A stretch of 64,000 nucleotides of DNA from an uncultured Elusimicrobia bacterium (GTDB taxonomy: Bacteria; Elusimicrobiota; Elusimicrobia; UBA1565; UBA9628). Location: assembly GCA_964623465.1 (NCBI GenBank), contig CAZURZ010000001.1, positions 1,660 through 65,659 on the forward strand, given 5' to 3'. A program made the position numbers and the translations under genes. The notes beneath the pieces were generated by a model. It had not been told where the DNA came from. It saw only the letters and a program-made list of their open reading frames with translations, and ran no database searches. Position 1 is the first letter of the stretch, and each line of letters starts with the position of its first letter. Of this stretch, positions 2 to 45,365 are shown piece by piece.

Positions 2-82
2 TTCAAGCTGCAGGCGCTCTACGGACGCCTGCCGGAGCTCTTCGACAAGGTCAAGGAGCTGGAGAAGAAGAACACGATATGA
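2..82 (+). CDS. 3' end of an upstream gene of unknown function (partial; ...FKLQALYGRLPELFDKVKELEKKNTI*)
   Basis: Open frame entering the window; stop TGA at 80-82 overlaps the lpxC start. Confidence 0.3.
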   Translation, partial: FKLQALYGRLPELFDKVKELEKKNTI

Positions 83-972
83 TGAACGACAACCCGCTGC
101 AGACGACGATCGCCAAGGAAGTCGAACTCGAAGGAGTCGGCCTCCACACCGGAAACAAGTCCAAGATCACGTTCCGGCCGGCGCCGGCCAACACCGGCAT
201 ACGCTTCTTCCGCTCGGACCTCCCGGGCGTGCCCATGATCCCGGCCCGGCTCGAATTCGTGGTCACCACGGTCCGCGGCACCAACCTCGGCCTGGGCGAG
301 GCGCGCGTGCACACCGTGGAGCACGTGCTCTCGGCCTGCACCGGGCTCGGCATCGACAACCTCGACATCCTGGTCACGGCCAACGAGCCGCCCATCATGG
401 ACGGCTCGTCCCTGCCCTTCATCGACGCGCTGATCCGCGCGGGCCTCAAATCGCTCGACGCCCCCAAGCGCTGGCTCCACCTCCCGCACGAGGTGGTCTA
501 TCAGGCCAAGGACGGGGCGCGCTACCGGGCGACGCCCTCCGACAGGTTCGAGGTCGTCGCGACGCTGATCCACGACCATCCGCTGATGCCGAAGATGACG
601 CTCTCCATGACCGTCGAACGCGAGAGCTATCTCGCCGAGGTCGCCCGCGCGCGCACGTTCTGCTTCGAGCACGAGGTCGCCTATCTCAAGTCCCAGGGCC
701 TCGCCCAGGGCGGCTCTCTCGAGAACGCGATCGTCATCGGCAAGGACCGCTTCCACACGAACGAGGAAGGCCTGCGCTTCCCCGACGAGTTCGTGCGCCA
801 CAAGATGCTGGACCTCATCGGCGACCTGACGCTCATCGGCCGCCCGCTCTTCAAGATGCGCATCGAGGCCGAGCGCCTCGGCCACGCCCACAACGTCGAG
901 TTCGCCAAGCTCCTCGACGCCGCGGCCCGGAAGCTGCGCAAGCCCAAGACCCCCGCCCTGGAGGCCAAGTAA
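79..972 (+). CDS. lpxC: UDP-3-O-acyl-N-acetylglucosamine deacetylase
   Basis: 297 aa; the N-terminal and HTVEHVLSA region matches LpxC family signatures as I recall them; sits in the lipid A gene cluster. Confidence 0.9.
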   Translation: MMNDNPLQTTIAKEVELEGVGLHTGNKSKITFRPAPANTGIRFFRSDLPGVPMIPARLEFVVTTVRGTNLGLGEARVHTVEHVLSACTGLGIDNLDILVTANEPPIMDGSSLPFIDALIRAGLKSLDAPKRWLHLPHEVVYQAKDGARYRATPSDRFEVVATLIHDHPLMPKMTLSMTVERESYLAEVARARTFCFEHEVAYLKSQGLAQGGSLENAIVIGKDRFHTNEEGLRFPDEFVRHKMLDLIGDLTLIGRPLFKMRIEAERLGHAHNVEFAKLLDAAARKLRKPKTPALEAK

Positions 973-1458
973 ATGACGACCGAGACGACTCCCGCCGCCA
1001 ACCCGTTCGCCGCCGCGCCGGTCCGCTCCCTGGACATCAACGGCGTCAAGAAGGCCATCCCGCACCGCTACCCCCTGCTGCTCGTCGACCGCATCGACGT
1101 GATCCAGGAGGAGAAGTACTGCGTCGGCACCAAGATGGTCACCGCCAACGAACACTTCTTCGAGGGCCACTTCCCCGGCCAGCCCGTGATGCCCGGCGTG
1201 CTCATCGTCGAGTCGATGGCGCAGACCGCGTGCGCGATGCTGCTCTCCAAGGGCGGCTTCGAGAACAAGATCGCCTTCTTCATGGGCATCGACGAGGCCA
1301 AGTTCCGCGTGCCCGTGCTGCCCGGCTCCGTGCTCAAGCACCACATCGAGATTCTGCGCCTCGGCCGCGCCGGCAAGTTCAAGGGCGAGGCTTACGTCGA
1401 CGGCAAGCTCGCCGCGGAAGCGACGATGACCTTCGCTCTCGTCGACAAGGCGGCCTAA
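973..1458 (+). CDS. fabZ: 3-hydroxyacyl-ACP dehydratase
   Basis: 161 aa; HRYPLLLVDRI...HFPGQPVMPGVLIVE hot-dog fold motif typical of FabZ; immediately follows lpxC. Confidence 0.9.
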   Translation: MTTETTPAANPFAAAPVRSLDINGVKKAIPHRYPLLLVDRIDVIQEEKYCVGTKMVTANEHFFEGHFPGQPVMPGVLIVESMAQTACAMLLSKGGFENKIAFFMGIDEAKFRVPVLPGSVLKHHIEILRLGRAGKFKGEAYVDGKLAAEATMTFALVDKAA

Positions 1459-1462
1459 GGCG

Positions 1463-2275
1463 ATGGCGATCCATCCCAGCGCCGTGGTCGACCCGTCCGC
1501 AAAGATCGATCCGACGGCCGACATCGGCCCCGGGGCGATCATCGGGCCGGAGACCGTGATCGGCCCGCGCACCAAGGTCGGCGCGCACGCCGTCGTCGAG
1601 TTCGCGACGCTCGGCGCCGACAACATCCTCCACCCCGGCTGCTACGTCGGCACGCCTCCTCAGGACTTGAAGTACGCGGGCGAGAAGACGCGCCTGGAGA
1701 TGGGCGACAAGAACGTGGTCCGCGAGTGCGTGACGCTCAACCGCGGCACCGCGCAGGGCGGCGGCCTCACCAAGATCGGCAGCAACTGCCTGTTCATGGC
1801 GTGCTCCCACGTCGCGCACGACTGCGTGGTCGGCAACGGCGTGATCGTCGTCAACGCCGTGCTGCTCGCCGGACACGTCCATGTCGGCGACGGGGCCGTC
1901 CTGGGCGGCGGCTGCGCGATCCACCAGTTCTCGCGCATCGGACGCCTGGCCATGCTCGGCGGCGGCTCGATGAACGGACAGGACGTCCTGCCCTTCGCCA
2001 ACACCCAGGGCGACCGCGCGGTCATGCGCGGCATCAACATGCTCGGCCTCAAGCGGGCGGGGGTGCCCCCGGAATCGCGCTCGGCGCTGAAGGCGGCGTA
2101 CAAGACGCTCTTCCTCTCCGGCCTGACGCAGGCCGACGCGATCGCCCAGCTCAAGGCGGGCGGCAAGCCCGATCCGATCGTCCAGGAGTGGATCGACTTC
2201 ATCGAGTCCTCCGGCAAGCGCGGCTACATCCGTCCCGCCGCCGGCGCGACCGAGCTGGAGGAAGCGGCCGCCTAG
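1463..2275 (+). CDS. lpxA: UDP-N-acetylglucosamine O-acyltransferase
   Basis: 270 aa; left-handed beta-helix hexapeptide repeats; IHPSAVVDPSAKI start typical of LpxA. Confidence 0.9.
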   Translation: MAIHPSAVVDPSAKIDPTADIGPGAIIGPETVIGPRTKVGAHAVVEFATLGADNILHPGCYVGTPPQDLKYAGEKTRLEMGDKNVVRECVTLNRGTAQGGGLTKIGSNCLFMACSHVAHDCVVGNGVIVVNAVLLAGHVHVGDGAVLGGGCAIHQFSRIGRLAMLGGGSMNGQDVLPFANTQGDRAVMRGINMLGLKRAGVPPESRSALKAAYKTLFLSGLTQADAIAQLKAGGKPDPIVQEWIDFIESSGKRGYIRPAAGATELEEAAA

Positions 2276-3111
2276 TGGATCCGCTCGGCCTCGTCGCGGG
2301 CTCCGGACGCTTCCCGCTCCTCGTCGCCGAGGAGGCGCGGCGCCGCGGCGTGCCCGTGGTCGCGCTGGGGATCCCCGGCGTCACGGACCCGGCCCTCGAG
2401 GCCGCGGCCGGGGGGTTGACCTGGTTCAAGCTCGGGCAGATCGACGCGCCGATCAAGGCTCTCAAGGACAAGGGCGTGCGCCGCGTCGTCATGGCGGGCA
2501 AGGTCCAGCATGTCTCGCTGTTCGGCGGCGTGATGCCGGACTGGCGCGCGGCCAAGGTGCTGATGGGCCTCAAGGACAAGCGCACCGACACCATCCTCAA
2601 GGCCGTCGTCGACGAGTTCGCGAAGGACGGGCTGGAGTTCATCTCCTCCGCGCATTATCTCGAGCACCTGCTCGCCCCGAACGGCGCGCTGACGAAGAAG
2701 GCCCTCTCCAAGGAGCAGGCCGCCGACGCCGCTCTCGGCTGGAAGGCGGCCAAGGCCGTCGCAGGCTTCGACATCGGTCAGACCGTGGTCGCGCAGGACA
2801 AGGCGATCGTCGCCGTCGAAGGCATGGAAGGCACCGACGCCTGCGTCGCGCGCGCCGCCGAACTGGCCCGTTCGCAAGGCAAGGAGCCCGCCCTCGTCGT
2901 GGTGAAGGTCGCCAAGCCGCGCCAGGATTTCCGCTTCGACCTGCCCGTCGTCGGACTCGATTCGCTCAAGGCGTTCAAGGCCGCCGGCGTGAGGGCTCTC
3001 GCTCTCGAGGCGGGCTCGACGCTCGTCTTCGATCGCGACGCGTTCGCCCGCGAGGCCGACGCCGCCGGAATCGCCGTCGCCGGTTATCCCCCGGAGGGAC
3101 CCATCTCATGA
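2276..3111 (+). CDS. lpxI: UDP-2,3-diacylglucosamine hydrolase LpxI (DUF1009 family)
   Basis: GTG start immediately after the lpxA stop; LVAGSGRFPLL...VVMAGKV motif of the LpxI family; located between lpxA and lpxB as in Caulobacter. Confidence 0.8.
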
Positions 3112-4148
3112 CGCAGTCCAAGATCCGCGTCGCCGTCGTCGGCGCCGGCAAGATGGGCACGCACCACGCGCGCGCGCTGTCGAAAGCCGAGGGCATCGAG
3201 CTCGTCGGCGTCTGCGACACGAACGTCTGGAAGGCCCAGCTCGCGGCCTGGCAGTCGAACACCGTCGCCGTGCGCGACTACAAGGACGTGCTGTCCCGGG
3301 TGGACGCCGTCGTCGTCGCCGTGCCCACGCCCCTGCATTACGAGGTCGGCAAGGCGGTCCTGGAGGCGGGGGCGCACTGCCTCATCGAGAAGCCCCTCGC
3401 GTCCTCGGTCGACGAGGCCAAGGAACTCCTCGCCCTGTCGGAGGAAAACGGCCTCGTCCTGCAGGTCGGGCACATCGAGCGCTTCAACCCGGCCGTGCTC
3501 GAGGCGGTCCAGCACATCCGCGATCCGCGCTACATCACCGTCGAGCGGCTCGGCCCCTACGATCCGCGCATGAGCCACATCGGCGTGGTCATGGACCTGA
3601 TGATCCACGATCTCGACATCCTCCTGACCCTCGTCGGGTCCGAGGTCGAGTCCATCGAGGCCCTCGGCGCCAACCTCTTCGCCAAGCATGAGGACATCGC
3701 GAACGTGCGGGTGCGCTTCAAGACCGGCTGCGTCGCCGATTTGACCGCCAGCCGCATCTCGCTGACCAAGAGCCGCAAGCTGCGCGCGTTCCAGAAGGAC
3801 AGCTACATCTCCCTCGATTACGGCGGCGCCGCCCTCAAGGTCTACCGCAAGAAATCGGCGACCATCAAGAGCCTCAAGGACGTCGAGATCCTGACGCCGA
3901 AGCTCTCTTCGACCGACCCGCTGCGCAACGAGCACCAGCACTTCCTCGACTGCATCCGGCACAACCGCAAGCCGTGGCCGAGCGGCGAGCGCGGCGTCGA
4001 GGCGCTGAAGCTGGCTCTGCAGATCTCCGAGGAGTTGGAGCGCTACGAGCTGTCCGGCCACGCCGGCTCGCGCTCGCTCATCCCCTCGTGGGCCCAGGAC
4101 CTGGGCAAGATCGCCAAGAACGTCGGCAAGGACATCCTGCGCAGCTGA
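3108..4148 (+). CDS. Gfo/Idh/MocA-family NAD(P)-dependent oxidoreductase (possibly GnnA-like UDP-GlcNAc 3-dehydrogenase)
   Basis: 346 aa; N-terminal Rossmann motif VAVVGAGKMG and EKP motif; ATG overlaps the lpxI stop (ATGA); embedded in the lpx cluster. Confidence 0.8.
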   Translation: MTQSKIRVAVVGAGKMGTHHARALSKAEGIELVGVCDTNVWKAQLAAWQSNTVAVRDYKDVLSRVDAVVVAVPTPLHYEVGKAVLEAGAHCLIEKPLASSVDEAKELLALSEENGLVLQVGHIERFNPAVLEAVQHIRDPRYITVERLGPYDPRMSHIGVVMDLMIHDLDILLTLVGSEVESIEALGANLFAKHEDIANVRVRFKTGCVADLTASRISLTKSRKLRAFQKDSYISLDYGGAALKVYRKKSATIKSLKDVEILTPKLSSTDPLRNEHQHFLDCIRHNRKPWPSGERGVEALKLALQISEELERYELSGHAGSRSLIPSWAQDLGKIAKNVGKDILRS

Positions 4149-5260
4149 TGAAGGGGCCGCTTTTTCTCGTCGTCTGCGGGGATCCTTCCGGCGATCTGCA
4201 CGCGTCGGGCCTGATCCGGGCGCTCAAGGCGCGCGAGCCCGGCGCGCGCGTCGCCGCCGTGGGCGGCCCGCTCTGCCGCGAGGCCGCCGACGAGTTTCTC
4301 GAGGATCTGGCCTCCCGCGGCGTGACGGGCTTCTGGGAACCGGCCCTCAAACTCGGCTTCCTCCTCAAGCTGGCCCGCCGCATCAAGCGCTTCCTGGAGG
4401 AGCGCCGGCCGGCCGCGCTCGTCTGCGTCGACTACTACGGCTTCAACCGCCGCATCCTGCCCTACGCCAAGACCGCCGGGGTTCCCGCTTGGTATTTCGT
4501 CAGTCCCCAGGTCTGGGCCAGCCGTCCGGGACGCGTGAAGGTGCTCAAGCGTCTCGTCGACAAGATGCTCTTGATCTTTCCCTTCGAGGAAAAGATATAC
4601 CGCGACGCCGGCGTGCCCGCCGAGTTCGTGGGCCACCCCCTGCTCGACCTCATCCCCGAGCCGCCGGCGCGCCGCGAGGGCACGAATCTCGTCGGCATCC
4701 TGCCCGGCAGCCGCTCCTCCGAGATCCGCCGCCACCTCCCCGTCCTGCTCGAGGCCTTCCGCCTCCTGCGCCTGAAGAACCCGCACCTCGAGGCCCGCCT
4801 CTTCGCGGCCGCCAACCAGCCCGACTCCGCCTACGGGAAGCTGCCCGCCGGAGTCGAACTCGTGCGCGAGCACGACTACCGCGAGCGCGCGGCGCTCGAC
4901 GTCGCGCTGTGCTCGTCGGGAACCGCGACGCTCGAGAACGCCCTGCTCGGCGTGCCGATGGTCGTGATCTACAAGCTGTCCTGGCCGACCTACGCGATCG
5001 CGCGCGCGATCGTGAAGGTCAAGCACATCGCCATGGCCAACCTCCTGGCCGGCAAGACGGTGGTCCCCGAGCTGATCCAGCGCGAGGCCACACCGGCGCG
5101 CGTCTTCGTCGAGGCCTCCGCCTTCCTCGACGAGCCCGCGAAGGCCGCGGCCGCCCGCGCCGAACTGCTGGCGGTCCGCCGCTCGCTCGGGACGCCCGGC
5201 GCCGCCGGCCGCGCCGCGGACGCGCTGCTCGCCGGAATCCGCCAAGGAGCCGCGGCATGA
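4148..5260 (+). CDS. lpxB: lipid-A-disaccharide synthase
   Basis: MKGPLFLVVCGDPSGDLHASGLIRALK matches the LpxB N-terminus; start overlaps the upstream stop. Confidence 0.85.
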   Translation: MKGPLFLVVCGDPSGDLHASGLIRALKAREPGARVAAVGGPLCREAADEFLEDLASRGVTGFWEPALKLGFLLKLARRIKRFLEERRPAALVCVDYYGFNRRILPYAKTAGVPAWYFVSPQVWASRPGRVKVLKRLVDKMLLIFPFEEKIYRDAGVPAEFVGHPLLDLIPEPPARREGTNLVGILPGSRSSEIRRHLPVLLEAFRLLRLKNPHLEARLFAAANQPDSAYGKLPAGVELVREHDYRERAALDVALCSSGTATLENALLGVPMVVIYKLSWPTYAIARAIVKVKHIAMANLLAGKTVVPELIQREATPARVFVEASAFLDEPAKAAAARAELLAVRRSLGTPGAAGRAADALLAGIRQGAAA

Positions 5261-14789: not shown

Positions 14790-14842
14790 CGCAGGCGAGG
14801 ATTTGAGCCCGATTGCCCCACGCCGAATGGGAGCTAAAAAGG
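14790..14842 (+). ncRNA. SAM-II-like riboswitch candidate
   Basis: P1 stem GGCGAGG/CCACGCC encloses a 17-nt loop GAUUUGAGCCCGAUUGCC; the 3' tail AGCUAAAAAGG closely matches the SAM-II (metX) riboswitch as I recall it (GAUUUAACCGUAUUGCA loop, AGCUAAAAAGG tail); sits in the 5' leader of metH. Confidence 0.55.
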
Positions 14843-14850
14843 CAGACGAG

Positions 14851-14876
14851 ACCACGCTACGGCGTGGTTTTTTATT
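14851..14876 (+). terminator. intrinsic terminator / expression platform of the metH leader
   Basis: Hairpin ACCACGC-uac-GGCGTGGT followed by TTTTTTATTT, 3 nt before the metH ATG. Confidence 0.6.
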
Positions 14877-14878
14877 TG

Positions 14879-18405
<3,527 letters not shown>

Positions 18406-18409
<4 letters not shown>

Positions 18410-41706: not shown

Positions 41707-42099
41707 TCAGTAGTCGGTCGGCGGCGGGGCGGGAACGAGCTCGGGGCAGCGGGACATCATGTAAGACCCGGGATCCGCGCTCTCCACGGCCCGGGCCTGG
41801 GCGAGCAAGGCCTCGTTGAGGGAGCGCACGACGGCCTCGCCGGAACTCGTTCCGTCGGCGGCCTGGAAGGAACAGGTCCGGGCGTCGAAGACGAAGCGCC
41901 CTTGCGCGCCGCTCACGCCGCCCGCCAGCACGGCCCGTCCCTTCTCGAACCGGCCGCCCATGGAGCGATGGCAGGAGACCTGGGCCTCATACGGCCCCGC
42001 GGGCTCGGCGGCGCGGCCCTGGGCTTTCTTCGCGACCTGGGCCGGAGCCGACGGCGACAGGATCGAGACGAGTACGGCGGCGGCGATGAACCGGATCAT
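41707..42099 (-). CDS. hypothetical small secreted protein
   Basis: ATG preceded by a GGAGGAG ribosome-binding site; signal peptide. Confidence 0.5.
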   Translation of the reverse strand: MIRFIAAAVLVSILSPSAPAQVAKKAQGRAAEPAGPYEAQVSCHRSMGGRFEKGRAVLAGGVSGAQGRFVFDARTCSFQAADGTSSGEAVVRSLNEALLAQARAVESADPGSYMMSRCPELVPAPPPTDY

Positions 42100-42250
42100 G
42101 GACTCCTCCTCGCGTCGAGCGGCGATCACAGTATGCGCGGGACGCGCGGGCGCGTCATGAGGCGAGGGACCCAGCCGGCCCTGGGTCCAAGGTCCGAACA
42201 GAAGCGGGCCGCCGCGTTCCGCGCGGCGGCCCGCTCGTCCGATCCGTCCG

Positions 42251-44890
42251 TCAGGCGCCCTTCGAGACCTTCTCGAGGGTGAGCCAGCGGTTGGTGCCCG
42301 CGAACTTCTGATGCATGCGGGTGCGCGGCTCGGCCGGCTGGGCGACTTCGGTGAGCTGCAGGTCCGCCAGCGCGTCGATGCCCCGCTCGCGGAAGCCCTT
42401 CAGCGAGTTCTCCAGCGCCATGCCCATCGTGCGGAAGGCGAGCAGGGTCGAGAACTGCAGGGTGAAGCCGAGCTTGCCGAGGGTCTCGTTGGTGATCAGC
42501 GTGTTGTTCTGCTTGGCCTTGCCCCAGTGCAGGGAGGGCGAGAGATTGAAGCCGAGCATCTGATTCGGGTAGTGCTTGTGCACGCCCTCGGCGAACCGCT
42601 GCGGGCCCTCGAGATCGGTGTTGTTGAACTCCGGCCAGATCACGTCGACGCCGAGCGAGGCCGCCTCGAGCGCGCGGTCGATCGCGTGCTGGACCGAGCC
42701 GCCGCGGCCGCCCGGCACCGCGCCGTCGACGGCGTCCGTGCGCGCGATGATGACGAGGTTGGTCTCCGAGGCCTGCGCGGCCGCCTTCACCGCGATCAGC
42801 TTCTCGATCCACTTGTTGGTGGGCACGAGGACCTTCTCGCGCTTCACGCCGTGGTGCGCGACGATGTGGCCGCAGGTGCGCTCCGCCGGGTCCTGGTCCT
42901 CGAGGTGCACGCCGGCGACGCCGGCGCGGATCAGCTCCCGGGTCAACGTGAAGGTCTGAGTCGGGCCGCCGAAGCCGGCCTCGATGTCGGCGAAGATCGG
43001 CGGGGTGTTGAGAACCTTTCCGCCGTCGTCGTAGAAGTGACGGTCGCGCGTCCCCTCGATCCCGCGCACCAGCTCGCGGACGAGGTCGACCATCATGTGC
43101 GAGGGATAGATCCCGATGTCGGGATACATGTTGTGCGCGACGGCGAGCTGCCAGCCGGACGCGTAGATCGCCTCGAAGCCGAGATCGGTCAGGAGCGAAG
43201 CCGTCATCGCGTCGTAGGAGCCCGCGGTGTGGAGGAAGGAATTTTTCGGATCGCTCAAGCGGTTCGCGAACTTCGCCTTGAGCAGGGAGCGCAGCTTGTC
43301 CGACGGATGGGTCTTCTCGTGGGGCGCGTACATCTTCGCGAACTCGGCGGCGGGGTACTTCCAGGCCTTGATGCCCTCGGGGAGAGGGGCGGCGGCTTCC
43401 TTGATCATCTGCTGGCTCCATGCGCTCGCGCGTCTGTATTTATCCGCCGTGGCGGACTCCGGACCGTTTGCGGCCAAGATTTTTCCGGTCTCTTCCTCGA
43501 ACCAGCGCGCCACGTCGGCGGCGGCGTGCACGCCGTGGCGGACGCGCTGGGCGATCATCAGGCGGTAGATGCGGTCGGTCGCCAGGTCCTCCATGAAGTT
43601 GCCGATCAGGGCGCCGTCGGCGTCGTAGCCCTTGATCATGCGCGCGCCGAGGCCGGAGAGCACCCCGAAACGGTACTCGACGCAGGTCCGGATCGCGTCG
43701 CGCGTCCCCGCCTCGGTGACGGCGCCCAGCCCCATCGGGGACGGCGTCAAGTCCGGCTTGAGGAAGCCGGGGTGGCGGACGCCGAGCTGATTGGGAGCGG
43801 GAAACTGCGAGATCGCGCCCGCGTGCTGGTCGGGATGGCCGGTCCAGGCGCCGTCGAAGCCCAGCGCGGCCTCGTTCTTCTTGTCGGCCGCGAGCTTCTC
43901 CATCGCGCGCGCGTTCACGGCCGCGTCGGTTCTGTCCGGAAAAAGCGCCGTCATGCCGCCGATCGCCAGAGCGCCGCGCTTGTGGCAGCACTCGACGAGG
44001 CGGCGGCGCAGGTTCTGAAAGAAGGGCACGTCGTGAGGGATCGTGTTCCGGTCGGGCAGTATCCAGCCCGGATCGGCGAGCTTGAAATGAAGCAGGCTCG
44101 CCATGTAGTCCCAGCGTCCGAGATTGAGGCCGATCACGTGCCGCCGCGCGGCGAACAGGATCTCCTCGATCTGATAGGCCGCCGGCAGGGACTCGATCAG
44201 AAACATGACCTTGGTCGTGCCGGGAGGGATGCCGATCGACTCCTCCATCGAGGTCAAAACCTCCGACCACCAGGCGGCCTCCTCGTGGGACTCGGTCTTC
44301 GGGATGTAAAAACAGAGCTTGGCGCGGAGCGCCTCGTCCTTCACGGAAGCGCGGCGCAGGTCGGCGGCGCCGTGGAAGACGGCGGCCAGGTCGAACAGGG
44401 CGCCGGAGACCGTCTCGCCGGGAATCGCGTTCGTCTCGTCGAGGTGCAGGCCTCGCGGGCGATAGAGCATGACCTGCTTCGAGGGCTTGATCTTCGCGGT
44501 CTTTCGCGCGGCGTCGGTGAACGAGAGCTCGCCCTTGATCGCCGCGATCACGTTGCGGTGCCCGGCGCCGACGTTCGTCCAATCGGTCGTGATCGAGTCC
44601 TCGCCGTCGGGCATGCAGCCCGGATCGGCCGTGTTCGTCATCGCGACGAGGAGCTTGGCGTTGTCGGCCGGGCCGGTGATCTGATTGCGCTGATCCGCGG
44701 CCCAGGCGGGCACGGAGACCGACCAGCTTCCCTCGGTCGCCTCGGAGGGCGGAAGATAGCCGGGCGGGCGTCCCTCGTGAGCGGCGGCCAGGGCCCGACG
44801 GCGGGCTTCGACGAGGACGCGGCGGCGGGGCTCGAACGCGCGATGCAGCGGGAGGAAGAACTCGAGCAGCTCTTTCGTGGGCGCGTCCAC
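42251..44890 (-). CDS. bifunctional glyoxylate-cycle enzyme: malate synthase A (N-terminal) fused to isocitrate lyase (C-terminal)
   Basis: Single 879-aa ORF; N-terminal half carries MS-A motifs (LNLGRWDYMAS, GFDGAWTGHPD); C-terminal half carries ICL/PEP-mutase motifs (FEAIYASGWQ, GVHLEDQ, RTCGH, IIARTDA). Confidence 0.8.
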   Translation of the reverse strand: MDAPTKELLEFFLPLHRAFEPRRRVLVEARRRALAAAHEGRPPGYLPPSEATEGSWSVSVPAWAADQRNQITGPADNAKLLVAMTNTADPGCMPDGEDSITTDWTNVGAGHRNVIAAIKGELSFTDAARKTAKIKPSKQVMLYRPRGLHLDETNAIPGETVSGALFDLAAVFHGAADLRRASVKDEALRAKLCFYIPKTESHEEAAWWSEVLTSMEESIGIPPGTTKVMFLIESLPAAYQIEEILFAARRHVIGLNLGRWDYMASLLHFKLADPGWILPDRNTIPHDVPFFQNLRRRLVECCHKRGALAIGGMTALFPDRTDAAVNARAMEKLAADKKNEAALGFDGAWTGHPDQHAGAISQFPAPNQLGVRHPGFLKPDLTPSPMGLGAVTEAGTRDAIRTCVEYRFGVLSGLGARMIKGYDADGALIGNFMEDLATDRIYRLMIAQRVRHGVHAAADVARWFEEETGKILAANGPESATADKYRRASAWSQQMIKEAAAPLPEGIKAWKYPAAEFAKMYAPHEKTHPSDKLRSLLKAKFANRLSDPKNSFLHTAGSYDAMTASLLTDLGFEAIYASGWQLAVAHNMYPDIGIYPSHMMVDLVRELVRGIEGTRDRHFYDDGGKVLNTPPIFADIEAGFGGPTQTFTLTRELIRAGVAGVHLEDQDPAERTCGHIVAHHGVKREKVLVPTNKWIEKLIAVKAAAQASETNLVIIARTDAVDGAVPGGRGGSVQHAIDRALEAASLGVDVIWPEFNNTDLEGPQRFAEGVHKHYPNQMLGFNLSPSLHWGKAKQNNTLITNETLGKLGFTLQFSTLLAFRTMGMALENSLKGFRERGIDALADLQLTEVAQPAEPRTRMHQKFAGTNRWLTLEKVSKGA

Positions 44891-45029
44891 GCGCCTACCT
44901 TAAGAAACATCGCGGCGGGCGTCAATGACCAATGAACGCGAATCGCGGACGATTTTTTCGCCCCCCCCCTTGCGATTCCCGAAAAGTCCGGTTACACTCC
45001 TAACCCACTCTCGAACGGAGGTTTACCGC

Positions 45030-45308
45030 ATGAGAAAGAAGACCGCCCGCGCGGCCGCCAAGGCCGCCCCCGCTCCCCGCAAGAAGGCCCCCGTCCGCCG
45101 CTCGCTCGTGCTCAAGCCCGAGTCGATCTCGGCCGACGAGGTCGTGCAGATCGAATCCGTCGTGAAGCGCTTCGAGGAGAGCGAGAAAGCCTGGCAGCGG
45201 ATGACCGCCGCGCCGGACGAGGACGACAAGTGGTCCTCGGTCGAGGAGCATCTTCTCGCGCGCCGCGACGGGGACGCCGAAAGACGCTGGAAATTCTTTT
45301 CGAAATAG
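45030..45308 (+). CDS. small hypothetical basic protein
   Basis: GGAGG ribosome-binding site 8 nt upstream of the ATG; divergent from the MS-ICL gene. Confidence 0.4.
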   Translation: MRKKTARAAAKAAPAPRKKAPVRRSLVLKPESISADEVVQIESVVKRFEESEKAWQRMTAAPDEDDKWSSVEEHLLARRDGDAERRWKFFSK

Positions 45309-45327: not shown

Positions 45328-45365
45328 CCGCCCCCCGGCTTCCGCCGGGGGGCGGACCCTTTTTA
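45328..45365 (+). terminator. intrinsic terminator
   Basis: 11-bp GC stem CCGCCCCCCGG/CCGGGGGGCGG followed by CCCTTTTTAT. Confidence 0.6.

What the first reader, a model, noticed from the sequence alone, without database searches (positions are those of the whole stretch)
42251..44890. Malate synthase and isocitrate lyase fused in one 879-aa polypeptide (MS N-terminal, ICL C-terminal)
One uninterrupted ORF encodes clear malate synthase A motifs in its first approximately 470 residues and clear isocitrate lyase/PEP-mutase-family motifs (including the RTCGH catalytic loop) in the remainder. Both glyoxylate-shunt enzymes would therefore sit on a single chain. In bacteria aceA and aceB are normally separate genes; to my recollection, fusions have been reported in nematodes (ICL-MS order) and Euglena (MS-ICL order). 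A bacterial MS-ICL fusion would imply substrate channelling of glyoxylate.
Basis: seen in the sequence. Interest (0 to 1): 0.6.

Follow-up and report, generated by a model that had tools for sequence, protein, structure and literature searches.

The report
Fused malate synthase–isocitrate lyase gene
One real 879-residue gene of an uncultured Elusimicrobiota bacterium joins both glyoxylate-shunt enzymes (malate synthase first, isocitrate lyase second) on one chain; the fusion is real and conserved, but same-order fusions already exist in other bacteria, so it is a new independent example, not a first.

Summary
Window 42251..44890 (minus strand) is one uninterrupted 879-aa ORF with GC3 0.92 throughout. 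Residues 1-497 are a malate synthase A-type module and residues 510-879 an isocitrate lyase module, joined by a ~12-residue linker (EAAAPLPEGIKA). It is not an assembly artefact: about 47 full-length homologues (72-95% identity) come from independent assemblies, and about 20 GTDB species genomes, all Elusimicrobia, carry the single ORF. All key catalytic residues of both halves are invariant. The C-terminal half is ICL-type, not methylisocitrate lyase.

Both halves belong to a divergent, uncharacterised MS + "short ICL" pair. Its marks are an RTCGH loop instead of KKCGH, a 7-residue loop insertion, a ~24-residue deletion and no C-terminal lid. In sister lineages the two are adjacent separate genes in the same order; in one MAG they are in frame with only a stop between. 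Fused forms are monophyletic, which fits one fusion by loss of the stop and intergenic region.

The novelty is overstated. MS->ICL fusions are on record in Anaeromyxobacter (noted 2006) and Bdellovibrio bacteriovorus, and are abundant in metagenomes; these are only 32% identical and arose independently. Glyoxylate channelling is untested.

The parts
42251..44890 (-). Complete fused gene: 879 codons plus a TGA stop (42251-42253), GTG start at 44890
   Evidence: ORF; GC3 0.92, uniform along the gene; domain hits; about 47 full-length homologues
43400..44890 (-). Malate synthase A-type module, residues 1-497 (MS_N 5-48, TIM barrel 141-363, C-terminal domain 391-496). Compared with canonical MSA it has an insertion (KGYDADGALIGN, ~420-431) before the catalytic Asp and a shortened C-terminal domain
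   Evidence: Foldseek on the AF2 model matches E. coli MSA 3cv2_B (TM 0.83 on the target, rmsd 2.5 A, 35% identity)
44459..44461 (-). Arg144, equivalent to E. coli MSA Arg166 (stabilises the enolate)
   Evidence: Alignment; invariant in 80/80 family members. Role and numbering are from memory of Lohman et al. 2008; the numbering fits the alignment with a +1 offset
44192..44194 (-). Glu233, equivalent to MSA Glu250 (Mg2+ ligand), in LIESLPA
   Evidence: 80/80
44108..44110 (-). Asp261, equivalent to MSA Asp278 (Mg2+ ligand), in GRWDY
   Evidence: 80/80
43586..43588 (-). Asp435, equivalent to MSA Asp447 (catalytic base), in FMEDLATDR
   Evidence: 80/80
43364..43399 (-). Inter-domain linker, residues 498-509 (EAAAPLPEGIKA). 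It replaces the MS tail 'RG[ED]F-stop', the intergenic spacer and the variable 20-30 N-terminal residues of the separate ICL gene
   Evidence: junction compared with the unfused loci L002, L023, L030, L031; variable among fused homologues; pLDDT below 50 at 503-511
42254..43363 (-). Short isocitrate lyase module, residues 510-879. It lacks ~24 residues after ARTDA and the last ~17-20 residues (C-terminal lid) of canonical ICL
   Evidence: Foldseek matches to ICL structures (6lrp, TM 0.65 on the target)
42827..42880 (-). ICL catalytic loop RTCGHIVAHHGVKREKVL (residues 671-688). Cys673 is the presumed catalytic general acid/base. The signature is RTCGH instead of KKCGH, with 7 extra residues after GH
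   Evidence: 7-residue gap in canonical ICLs; conserved across fused and unfused family members; low pLDDT at 676-680, as expected of a mobile loop
43151..43159 (-). S578-G579-W580 (YASGWQ), the glyoxylate-binding motif of ICL
   Evidence: at least 93/97 conserved
42980..42988 (-). D635-I-E637 (ADIEAGFGG), metal-binding acidic residues
42533..42547 (-). N782-L-S784-P-S786, equivalent to the ICL NCSPS motif that binds the succinate part of isocitrate and is absent from methylisocitrate lyases
   Evidence: at least 94/97. The role of the motif is from established ICL structural work, cited from memory

Best explanation
The gene encodes a bifunctional glyoxylate-shunt enzyme of an uncultured, high-GC Elusimicrobiota bacterium.

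The C-terminal isocitrate lyase module cleaves isocitrate into succinate and glyoxylate, using Mg2+ and Cys673 on a mobile loop. The N-terminal malate synthase A module condenses that glyoxylate with acetyl-CoA into malate, using Mg2+ bound by Glu233 and Asp261, Asp435 as base and Arg144. Together they bypass the two CO2-releasing TCA steps, so acetate and other C2 units can be assimilated.

The fusion arose once, inside one Elusimicrobiota clade, from an adjacent aceB-like -> aceA-like gene pair. That pair belongs to a divergent subfamily: a trimmed MS-A plus a 'short', lidless ICL with an RTCGH loop. The fusion removed the MS stop codon, the spacer and the variable ICL N-terminus, leaving a ~12-residue flexible linker.

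Shown here: the single ORF, its recurrence in independent assemblies, the domain identities, intact catalytic residues, the unfused relatives and monophyly of the fused forms.

Inferred: both activities. The likely benefit is fixed 1:1 production and co-localisation that keeps free glyoxylate low. True channelling is not shown.
For: - The ORF and its coding signal are continuous.
- Domain hits cover both halves.
- The AF2 model is confident for both modules (mean pLDDT 88.7), with a disordered linker at 503-511. The modules match E. coli MSA and ICL crystal structures.
- About 47 full-length homologues at 72-95% identity. A single uninterrupted ORF in about 20 GTDB species genomes labelled Elusimicrobia/Elusimicrobiota.
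- MS residues R144, E233, D261 and D435 are invariant in 80/80 sequences. ICL residues SGW, D591, D635/E637, H662/E664, C673-G-H, R717, W752, E754, N782/S784/S786 and F813/T815 are conserved in at least 91/97.
- ICL models score twice as high as prpB models.
- Unfused MS->ICL pairs in the same order occur at 60-74% identity in L002, L030 and L031. L023 has the two in frame with only a stop between.
- Fused forms are monophyletic for both halves.
- Other bacterial fusions are only 32% identical and have canonical ICL and long linkers, so this fusion is independent.
Against: - Both halves score well below NCBIfam equivalog cut-offs: MS-A 316 against 594.5; ICL 183 against 275.9 and 201 against 562. 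Neither has a characterised close relative, so the substrates are inferred from conserved residues only.
- The ICL loop reads RTCGH rather than KKCGH, carries a 7-residue insertion, and the C-terminal lid is missing. These changes could alter kinetics or specificity.
- Bootstrap support for fused monophyly is only about 50% on simple NJ trees.
- No TCA or acetate-activation genes lie nearby, and no promoter or terminator was recognised.
- Nothing here bears on expression or activity.
Confidence: 0.85

Rival explanations
1. Assembly or sequencing artefact: two adjacent genes (aceB-like and aceA-like) were wrongly joined by an indel that removed a stop or shifted the frame.
For: Unfused adjacent pairs exist in relatives. 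In L023 only one stop codon separates in-frame genes. In the syntenic complete genome CP096137.1 the gene runs through three frames.
Against: The same uninterrupted ORF, with the same short linker, appears in about 20 independent species-level assemblies and about 47 protein clusters from NCBI, ENA, JGI and Logan. The fused junction lacks the MS tail 'RGEF' and the whole ICL N-terminus, which a 1-nt error cannot produce. GC3 is continuous across the junction. The CP096137.1 shifts are 1-nt deletions in C-runs, and the L024 'shift' is a run of Ns.
Confidence: 0.02
2. The C-terminal half is not an isocitrate lyase but another ICL/PEP-mutase-superfamily lyase (2-methylisocitrate lyase, oxaloacetate acetylhydrolase, 2,3-dimethylmalate lyase or similar). 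The protein would then serve a pathway other than the glyoxylate shunt.
For: It scores below every ICL equivalog cut-off. NCBI names relatives only 'isocitrate lyase/PEP mutase family protein'. The catalytic loop is atypical (RTCGH plus insertion) and there is no C-terminal lid, as in the shorter MICL-like enzymes.
Against: ICL models score about twice as high as prpB models (201/183 against 91/82 bits). The best PDB matches are all ICLs at 1e-38 to 1e-49, while MICL, OAH and DMML matches are 1e-10 to 1e-15. The NxSPS and F-x-T motifs and both Trp residues are conserved. Fusion or tight adjacency to a malate synthase, which consumes glyoxylate, is what an ICL predicts.
Confidence: 0.08
3. One module is catalytically silent or regulatory: a pseudo-enzyme domain kept for oligomerisation or allosteric control, as the extra domain of M. 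tuberculosis ICL2 binds acetyl-CoA.
For: Both halves are divergent. A separate stand-alone ICL paralogue at 78% identity exists in at least one genome that also has the fused gene (CP096137.1). A few unfused family members have lost the Cys loop.
Against: Every catalytic and ligand-binding residue checked is invariant or nearly so in all 48 fused sequences. That is not expected for a decaying active site.
Confidence: 0.05

Closest known systems
Bacterial MS->ICL fusion proteins of Anaeromyxobacter (P0415, Anaeromyxobacter sp. K, 1111 aa; P0426, A. oryzae) and Bdellovibrio bacteriovorus (P0482, 969 aa). The Anaeromyxobacter fusion is named in Kondrashov et al. 2006 (PMC1630690) and listed in Henry et al. 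2016 (PMC4921024)
   Same: They are bacterial, have the same domain order (MS N-terminal, ICL C-terminal) and presumably the same two reactions.
   Different: They are only 32% identical over the full length. They are built from canonical MS-A and canonical ICL (KKCGH, full C-terminal lid, no deletion after ARTDA). Their inter-domain region is much longer, and Anaeromyxobacter adds a C-terminal hemerythrin domain. The window protein's nearest relatives are unfused genes at 60-81% identity, so the fusion events are independent.
Euglena gracilis bifunctional glyoxylate cycle enzyme (MS/ICL; Nakazawa et al. 2005, cited in PMC8219788 and PMC1630690), with related fusions in Acanthamoeba, chrysophytes and a kinetoplastid
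   Same: MS-then-ICL order on one chain. According to the cited work, the Euglena enzyme has been shown experimentally to carry both activities.
   Different: It is a eukaryotic, mitochondrial, longer protein. No specific relationship to the window protein was seen: it is not among the close hits.
Nematode ICL-MS bifunctional enzyme (C. elegans ICL-1; Strongyloides P0245, 967 aa)
   Same: Both shunt enzymes sit on one chain.
   Different: The order is opposite, with ICL first (MS matched at residues 459-899 of P0245). It is eukaryotic and 36% identical.
Unfused divergent MS + short-ICL gene pairs of Elusimicrobiota, Polarisedimenticolia/Acidobacteriota and Gemmatimonadota MAGs (L002, L023, L030, L031)
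   Same: They belong to the same two subfamilies (MS 60-69% and ICL 61-81% identical), have the same gene order and the same RTCGH-plus-insertion loop.
   Different: They are two separate genes, with a stop, a 35-110 nt spacer and a variable ICL N-terminus.
Canonical aceB/aceA of E. coli and ICL1 of M. tuberculosis (structures 3cuz, 1igw, 1f61)
   Same: Same folds and the same catalytic residues.
   Different: They are separate polypeptides, about 35% (MS) and about 28-30% (ICL) identical. The window protein's ICL module is ~50 residues shorter and its loop signature differs.

Membership tests
Malate synthase A (TIGR01344 / PF01274) | MS N-terminal, TIM-barrel and C-terminal domains all present, in that order | tested here: met
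   Pfam MS_N 5-48, MS_TIM-barrel 141-363 (206 bits), MS_C 391-496. The AF2 model superposes on E. coli MSA with TM 0.83 and rmsd 2.5 A
Malate synthase A (TIGR01344 / PF01274) | Catalytic base Asp, enolate-stabilising Arg, and Mg2+ ligands Glu and Asp (E. coli D447, R166, E250, D278) | tested here: met
   D435, R144, E233 and D261 align and are invariant in 80/80 family members
Malate synthase A (TIGR01344 / PF01274) | Score above the NCBIfam equivalog cut-off (594.5 bits) | tested here: not met
   316.3 bits. This is a divergent subfamily, so functional equivalence is inferred and not curated
Malate synthase A (TIGR01344 / PF01274) | Glyoxylate + acetyl-CoA -> malate activity | not testable with these tools
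   Needs an enzyme assay
Isocitrate lyase (PF00463 / TIGR01346) | ICL/PEP-mutase TIM barrel with the metal-binding acidic residues and the Cys-Gly-His catalytic loop | tested here: met
   PF00463 at 145 bits. D591, D635, E637, H662, E664 and C673-G674-H675 are conserved
Isocitrate lyase (PF00463 / TIGR01346) | Canonical KKCGH signature | tested here: not met
   The loop reads RTCGH followed by a 7-residue insertion; this holds across the family
Isocitrate lyase (PF00463 / TIGR01346) | ICL-specific substrate-binding residues that set it apart from methylisocitrate lyase (SGW, NxSPS, F-x-T, second Trp) | tested here: met
   S578-G-W580, N782-x-S784-P-S786, F813-x-T815 and W752 are conserved in at least 91/97. 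prpB models score half as high as ICL models
Isocitrate lyase (PF00463 / TIGR01346) | Score above the equivalog cut-offs (275.9 for TIGR01346, 562 for PRK15063) | tested here: not met
   183 and 200.9 bits
Isocitrate lyase (PF00463 / TIGR01346) | C-terminal lid segment that closes over the neighbouring subunit's active site | tested here: not met
   The protein ends at ...HQKFAGTNRWLTLEKVSKGA, about 17-20 residues before the canonical C-terminus (alignment to P0415; to 6lrp)
Bifunctional MS/ICL glyoxylate-cycle enzymes (Euglena / Anaeromyxobacter / Bdellovibrio type) | MS and ICL modules on one polypeptide, MS first | tested here: met
Bifunctional MS/ICL glyoxylate-cycle enzymes (Euglena / Anaeromyxobacter / Bdellovibrio type) | Common descent with those fusions (a shared fusion event) | tested here: not met
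   32% identity to P0415 and P0482 against 60-81% to unfused relatives. The junctions differ: a ~12-residue linker against much longer inter-domain regions
Bifunctional MS/ICL glyoxylate-cycle enzymes (Euglena / Anaeromyxobacter / Bdellovibrio type) | Both activities shown on one protein | not testable with these tools
   Needs expression and assays

The most novel reading that the evidence does not exclude
The divergent 'short ICL' (RTCGH loop with a 7-residue insertion, no C-terminal lid) and its trimmed MS-A partner form a functionally distinct, uncharacterised version of the glyoxylate shunt, spread over Elusimicrobiota, Acidobacteriota and Gemmatimonadota. In the fused Elusimicrobiota form, the MS module attached through a ~12-residue linker takes over the role of the missing lid or sits next to the ICL active site. 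Glyoxylate would then be handed directly from one site to the other, which would be true channelling in the most compact natural MS-ICL enzyme seen here's searches (879 aa).
Probability: 0.12. Interest if true: 0.6.

Novelty: new variant of a known kind. Interest (0 to 1): 0.3.

Why it matters
Glyoxylate is reactive and toxic. Fusing its producer to its consumer has evolved repeatedly: in nematodes, euglenids and amoebae, in Myxococcota and Bdellovibrio, and now in Elusimicrobiota. This case adds an independent event with unusually clear intermediates: separate adjacent genes, then in-frame genes split by one stop, then the fused gene. It also shows a very short linker.

It flags an uncharacterised MS/short-ICL subfamily that standard equivalog models do not name. 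Genome-based metabolic reconstructions of Elusimicrobiota, Acidobacteriota and Gemmatimonadota that rely on those models may therefore miss a glyoxylate shunt.

In practice, the 879-aa protein is a compact candidate for a structure of a bifunctional shunt enzyme, since no PDB chain found here covers both domains. It could also serve for engineering acetate assimilation.

It does not change the understanding of the pathway.

Tried and rejected
1. Frameshift or mis-assembly at the junction: rejected.
2. Methylisocitrate lyase or another PEP-mutase-superfamily identity for the C-terminal half: rejected on HMM scores and diagnostic residues.
3. 'First bacterial MS-ICL fusion': rejected. Anaeromyxobacter is named in PMC1630690 and PMC4921024. 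Anaeromyxobacter and Bdellovibrio proteins and hundreds of metagenomic ones were found.
4. Shared origin with those fusions: rejected (32% identity, different junctions, unfused nearest relatives).
5. Operon partners or regulators: none found. Flanking genes are unrelated (TPR/HEAT protein, TatD, GNAT, aldehyde dehydrogenase, SDR, NTP-transferase, AcrB). The rest of the window is housekeeping. The sigma-70 and terminator scan found nothing for this gene. The sigma-54 activator upstream of the unfused pair in L002 has no counterpart here.
6. Literature on an Elusimicrobia glyoxylate shunt, on the RTCGH signature and on a Bdellovibrio fusion: nothing relevant.
7. General co-occurrence of a stand-alone ICL paralogue with the fused gene: shown only for CP096137.1. 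The other paralogue loci could not be tied to assemblies that carry the fusion.
8. The first NJ/bootstrap attempt timed out and was redone with numpy.
Full report
**1. Observation**

One search lists an ORF at 42251..44890 on the minus strand: 879 aa, GTG start, TGA stop. In this 68% GC window long ORFs appear by chance. An 874-aa shadow ORF lies on the opposite strand at 42311..44935. The minus-strand frame is the real one: it has the coding signature (GC1/2/3 = 0.65/0.46/0.92), and GC3 stays at 0.82-1.00 in every 60-codon window, including across the junction.

Pfam finds MS_N (5-48), MS_TIM-barrel (141-363, 6e-61) and MS_C (391-496). It then finds ICL (two stretches, 4e-42) and PEP_mutase (554-759). 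The best solved relatives are E. coli malate synthase A 3cuz (1e-74) for residues 5-440 and bacterial isocitrate lyases (6lrp, 3e5b; about 1e-47) for residues ~508-870.

**2. Not an artefact**

A search of 5.8 billion proteins gave about 47 full-length (875-922 aa) homologues at 72-95% identity from NCBI, ENA, JGI and Logan assemblies. Where named, they are Elusimicrobia MAG proteins, which NCBI calls only 'isocitrate lyase/phosphoenolpyruvate mutase family protein'.

A scan of GTDB species representatives returned 29 loci. In about 20 of them (L007-L022, L026-L028), all labelled Elusimicrobia or Elusimicrobiota, the whole match lies in one stop-free ORF. One MAG is implausibly labelled Ca. 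Endomicrobium trichonymphae.

The window is syntenic with the complete MAG chromosome CP096137.1 (TPR/HEAT protein, TatD, GNAT, SDR, NTP-transferase). There the gene runs through three frames. The two shifts are single-base deletions in C-runs, at the equivalents of residues 498 and 629, with 93-94% amino-acid identity continuing in the shifted frames. This points to homopolymer errors or very recent decay. The apparent shift in L024 is a run of Ns.

**3. Are both halves functional?**

The four residues that define malate synthase catalysis are present and invariant in all 80 fused and unfused family members. They are Arg144, Glu233 and Asp261 (Mg2+ ligands) and Asp435 (base), equivalent to E. 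coli R166, E250, D278 and D447. Roles and numbering are from memory of Lohman et al. 2008; the numbering agrees with the alignment with a +1 offset.

In the ICL half the following are conserved in at least 91 of 97 sequences:
- the glyoxylate-binding Y-x-S-G-W;
- the metal-binding D591, D635, E637, H662 and E664;
- Cys673-Gly-His on the catalytic loop;
- R717, W752 and E754;
- N782-x-S784-P-S786 and F813-x-T815, which bind the succinate part of isocitrate.

ICL profiles score 183-201 bits against 82-91 for methylisocitrate lyase.

An AlphaFold2 model built on a 129-sequence alignment is confident for both modules (mean pLDDT 88.7). It has low confidence only at the linker (503-511) and at loops 590-592 and 676-680; the last lies in the ICL catalytic loop, which is mobile in known ICLs (established knowledge, from memory). 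The relative domain orientation is uncertain (pTM 0.60). Foldseek matches E. coli MSA (TM 0.83 on the target, rmsd 2.5 A) and ICL structures. None of the listed PDB matches covers both modules.

**4. A divergent subfamily**

Both halves fall far below the NCBIfam equivalog cut-offs: 316 against 594.5, 183 against 275.9 and 201 against 562.

The ICL module is 'short'. The signature is RTCGH instead of KKCGH. Seven extra residues follow it (IVAHHGVKREKV against xGGKV). About 24 residues after ARTDA are missing. The chain ends about 17-20 residues before the canonical C-terminus, so it lacks the lid that closes over the neighbouring subunit's active site in M. tuberculosis ICL1 (the lid's role is from memory of Sharma et al. 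2000).

These features are shared by a large family of stand-alone 375-400-aa proteins (61-81% identical) in Elusimicrobiota, Polarisedimenticolia and Gemmatimonadota MAGs. The MS module has stand-alone relatives of 500-540 aa at 52-69% identity in Elusimicrobia, Polarisedimenticolia, Eremiobacterota and Pyrinomonadaceae MAGs. I found no paper on this subfamily or on the RTCGH loop.

**5. Origin of the fusion**

In L002 (JGI metagenome contig), L030 (Polarisedimenticolia) and L031 (Elusimicrobiota) the two genes are adjacent on the same strand, MS first, 35-110 nt apart. In L023 (Acidobacteriota MAG) they are in the same frame with only a stop codon and a short spacer between.

Unfused MS ends '...MI[RH]RG[ED]F-stop'. 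Unfused ICL begins with 20-30 variable residues before '[KR]TW.YP.E..K[LM][YF]AP'. In the fused protein the sequence reads '...WSQQMIK-EAAAPLPEGIKA-WKYPAAEFAKMYAP'. The MS tail, the stop, the spacer and the variable ICL N-terminus have been replaced by about 12 residues.

Fused sequences form one clade for each half in NJ trees, with bootstrap 98/200 and 94/200, which is modest. In the 1.84-billion-protein representative library the whole fused clade collapses into a single 50%-identity cluster (P0022). The simplest reading is one fusion event within Elusimicrobiota.

**6. Comparison with known fusions**

Both are confirmed by PMC1630690 and PMC8219788.

Bacterial fusions are also on record. 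Kondrashov et al. 2006 name Anaeromyxobacter dehalogenans. Henry et al. 2016 list an ICL/MS fusion of Anaeromyxobacter sp. Fw109-5. The representative search turned up several other long MS->ICL proteins (P0240, P0251, P0271, P0331 and others), and two of them lie in clearly prokaryotic gene contexts.

A search seeded with P0251 listed over a hundred such proteins. They include Anaeromyxobacter sp. K and A. oryzae (about 1110 aa; MS, then ICL, then a C-terminal hemerythrin domain), Myxococcaceae MAGs and Bdellovibrio bacteriovorus (969 aa). These are collinear with the window protein but only 32% identical. They carry canonical KKCGH ICLs with the full lid and much longer inter-domain regions. 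The Elusimicrobiota fusion is therefore an independent, more compact instance of a recurring design.

**7. Mechanism and limits**

The most likely function is a bifunctional glyoxylate-shunt enzyme: isocitrate is cleaved to succinate and glyoxylate, and glyoxylate plus acetyl-CoA gives malate. The fusion fixes the two activities at 1:1 and keeps them together, which should limit free glyoxylate.

Direct channelling is not implied by fusion alone. The linker is short and flexible, the inter-domain geometry is not predicted with confidence, and ICLs work as tetramers, so the real architecture is unknown.

The gene appears monocistronic and has no metabolic partners nearby. No promoter or terminator was recognised.

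At least one genome with the fused gene also has a stand-alone short ICL paralogue (78% identical). It lies in a conserved locus next to a large TPR/polysaccharide-deacetylase protein, two-component regulators and, in some loci, rubrerythrin. The ICL:MS ratio in the cell therefore need not be 1:1.

**8. Verdict**

The finding is real and its core interpretation is right. It is a new, independently evolved variant of an already known kind of fusion enzyme, built from an uncharacterised MS/short-ICL subfamily. Interest is modest, 0.3.

Noticed in passing
window 42311-44935 (+): An 874-aa ORF lies antisense to the fused gene. It is a high-GC shadow ORF: low-complexity, Arg/Gly/Ala-rich translation and the wrong codon-position GC. 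It is not a gene, but an ORF caller could mis-call it.
   Followed up: partly
P0415, P0426 (Anaeromyxobacter sp. K, A. oryzae) and many metagenomic relatives: The Anaeromyxobacter-type MS->ICL fusion carries a third, C-terminal hemerythrin (PF01814) domain at residues ~986-1103. That puts a possible O2-, NO- or iron-sensing module on a glyoxylate-shunt enzyme. The papers I read do not mention it.
   Followed up: partly
L004 1-5950 (GCA_040960375.1, contig JBFOMN010001197.1): Just upstream of another bacterial MS->ICL fusion (P0251) lie a 2767-aa protein combining MaoC dehydratase, AMP-binding and acyl-CoA dehydrogenase domains and a 1340-aa methylmalonyl-CoA mutase/B12-binding fusion. This is a locus of unusually large fused acyl-CoA metabolism enzymes, with PEP carboxykinase nearby.
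   Followed up: no
L003 8001-9167 (CP096137.1), L036, L037, L038: A stand-alone short-ICL paralogue (385-396 aa, 77-78% identical to the ICL half) sits in a conserved locus directly downstream of a gene whose product is 1050-1198 aa where complete (TPR + polysaccharide deacetylase; truncated in L037), next to two-component regulators and, in L003 and L038, rubrerythrin/ferritin, with no malate synthase beside it. In CP096137.1 it co-exists with the fused gene.
   Followed up: partly
Proteins P0200, P0202, P0205, P0208, P0209, P0211: Some unfused members of the short-ICL family have deleted or mutated the catalytic Cys-Gly-His loop while keeping the rest of the active site. They may be inactive paralogues or have a different chemistry.
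   Followed up: no
L001/L025 (CP096137.1), equivalents of window residues 498 and 629: The complete-chromosome Elusimicrobiota MAG has two 1-nt deletions in C-runs that split the fused gene into called products of 556 and 245 aa. NCBI therefore annotates an 'aldolase/citrate lyase family protein'. This is probably a homopolymer error in the assembly and may affect other genes of that genome.
   Followed up: partly
L029 (JAUYSH010000099.1): One MAG contig shows the fused gene with residues ~120-459 (the MS catalytic core) missing in frame. This is either a deletion variant or a mis-assembly.
   Followed up: no
window 41707-42129 (-): A 140-aa ORF with coding-like GC3 (0.89) and a signal-peptide-like N-terminus lies directly downstream of the fused gene. 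It has no Pfam hit and no counterpart at the same position in the syntenic genome CP096137.1, where that gap is only 120 nt.
   Followed up: partly
window 44925-45308 (+) and 45328-45355: A small divergent ORF with no Pfam hit starts only 34 nt from the fused gene's GTG if the first ATG is used; a later ATG at about 45030 is more plausible. A strong 12-bp GC hairpin plus T-run terminator follows it at 45328-45355. The promoter of the fused gene must lie within or next to this ORF.
   Followed up: partly
L002 6086-7615: In the unfused Polarisedimenticolia-like locus, a sigma-54-dependent activator (GAF + Sigma54_activat + HTH_8) sits directly upstream of the MS->ICL pair, suggesting sigma-54 control there. 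The window has no equivalent.
   Followed up: no
L009 (CALRXP010000125.1); L034 (JACQSM010000094.1): Taxonomic labels look doubtful. A MAG named 'Candidatus Endomicrobium trichonymphae' carries the same fused gene (84% amino-acid identity to this 68% GC window's protein). A MAG labelled 'Candidatus Uhrbacteria' (CPR) carries an ICL->MS gene pair, which is unexpected for a reduced CPR genome. These may be binning or labelling errors.
   Followed up: no
window 79-5260: A lipid A biosynthesis cluster (LpxC, FabZ-like, LpxA, a GFO/IDH/MocA oxidoreductase, LpxB) is consistent with a diderm Elusimicrobiota genome. A full-length cobalamin-dependent methionine synthase (MetH, 1198 aa) lies at 14813-18409.
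   Followed up: partly
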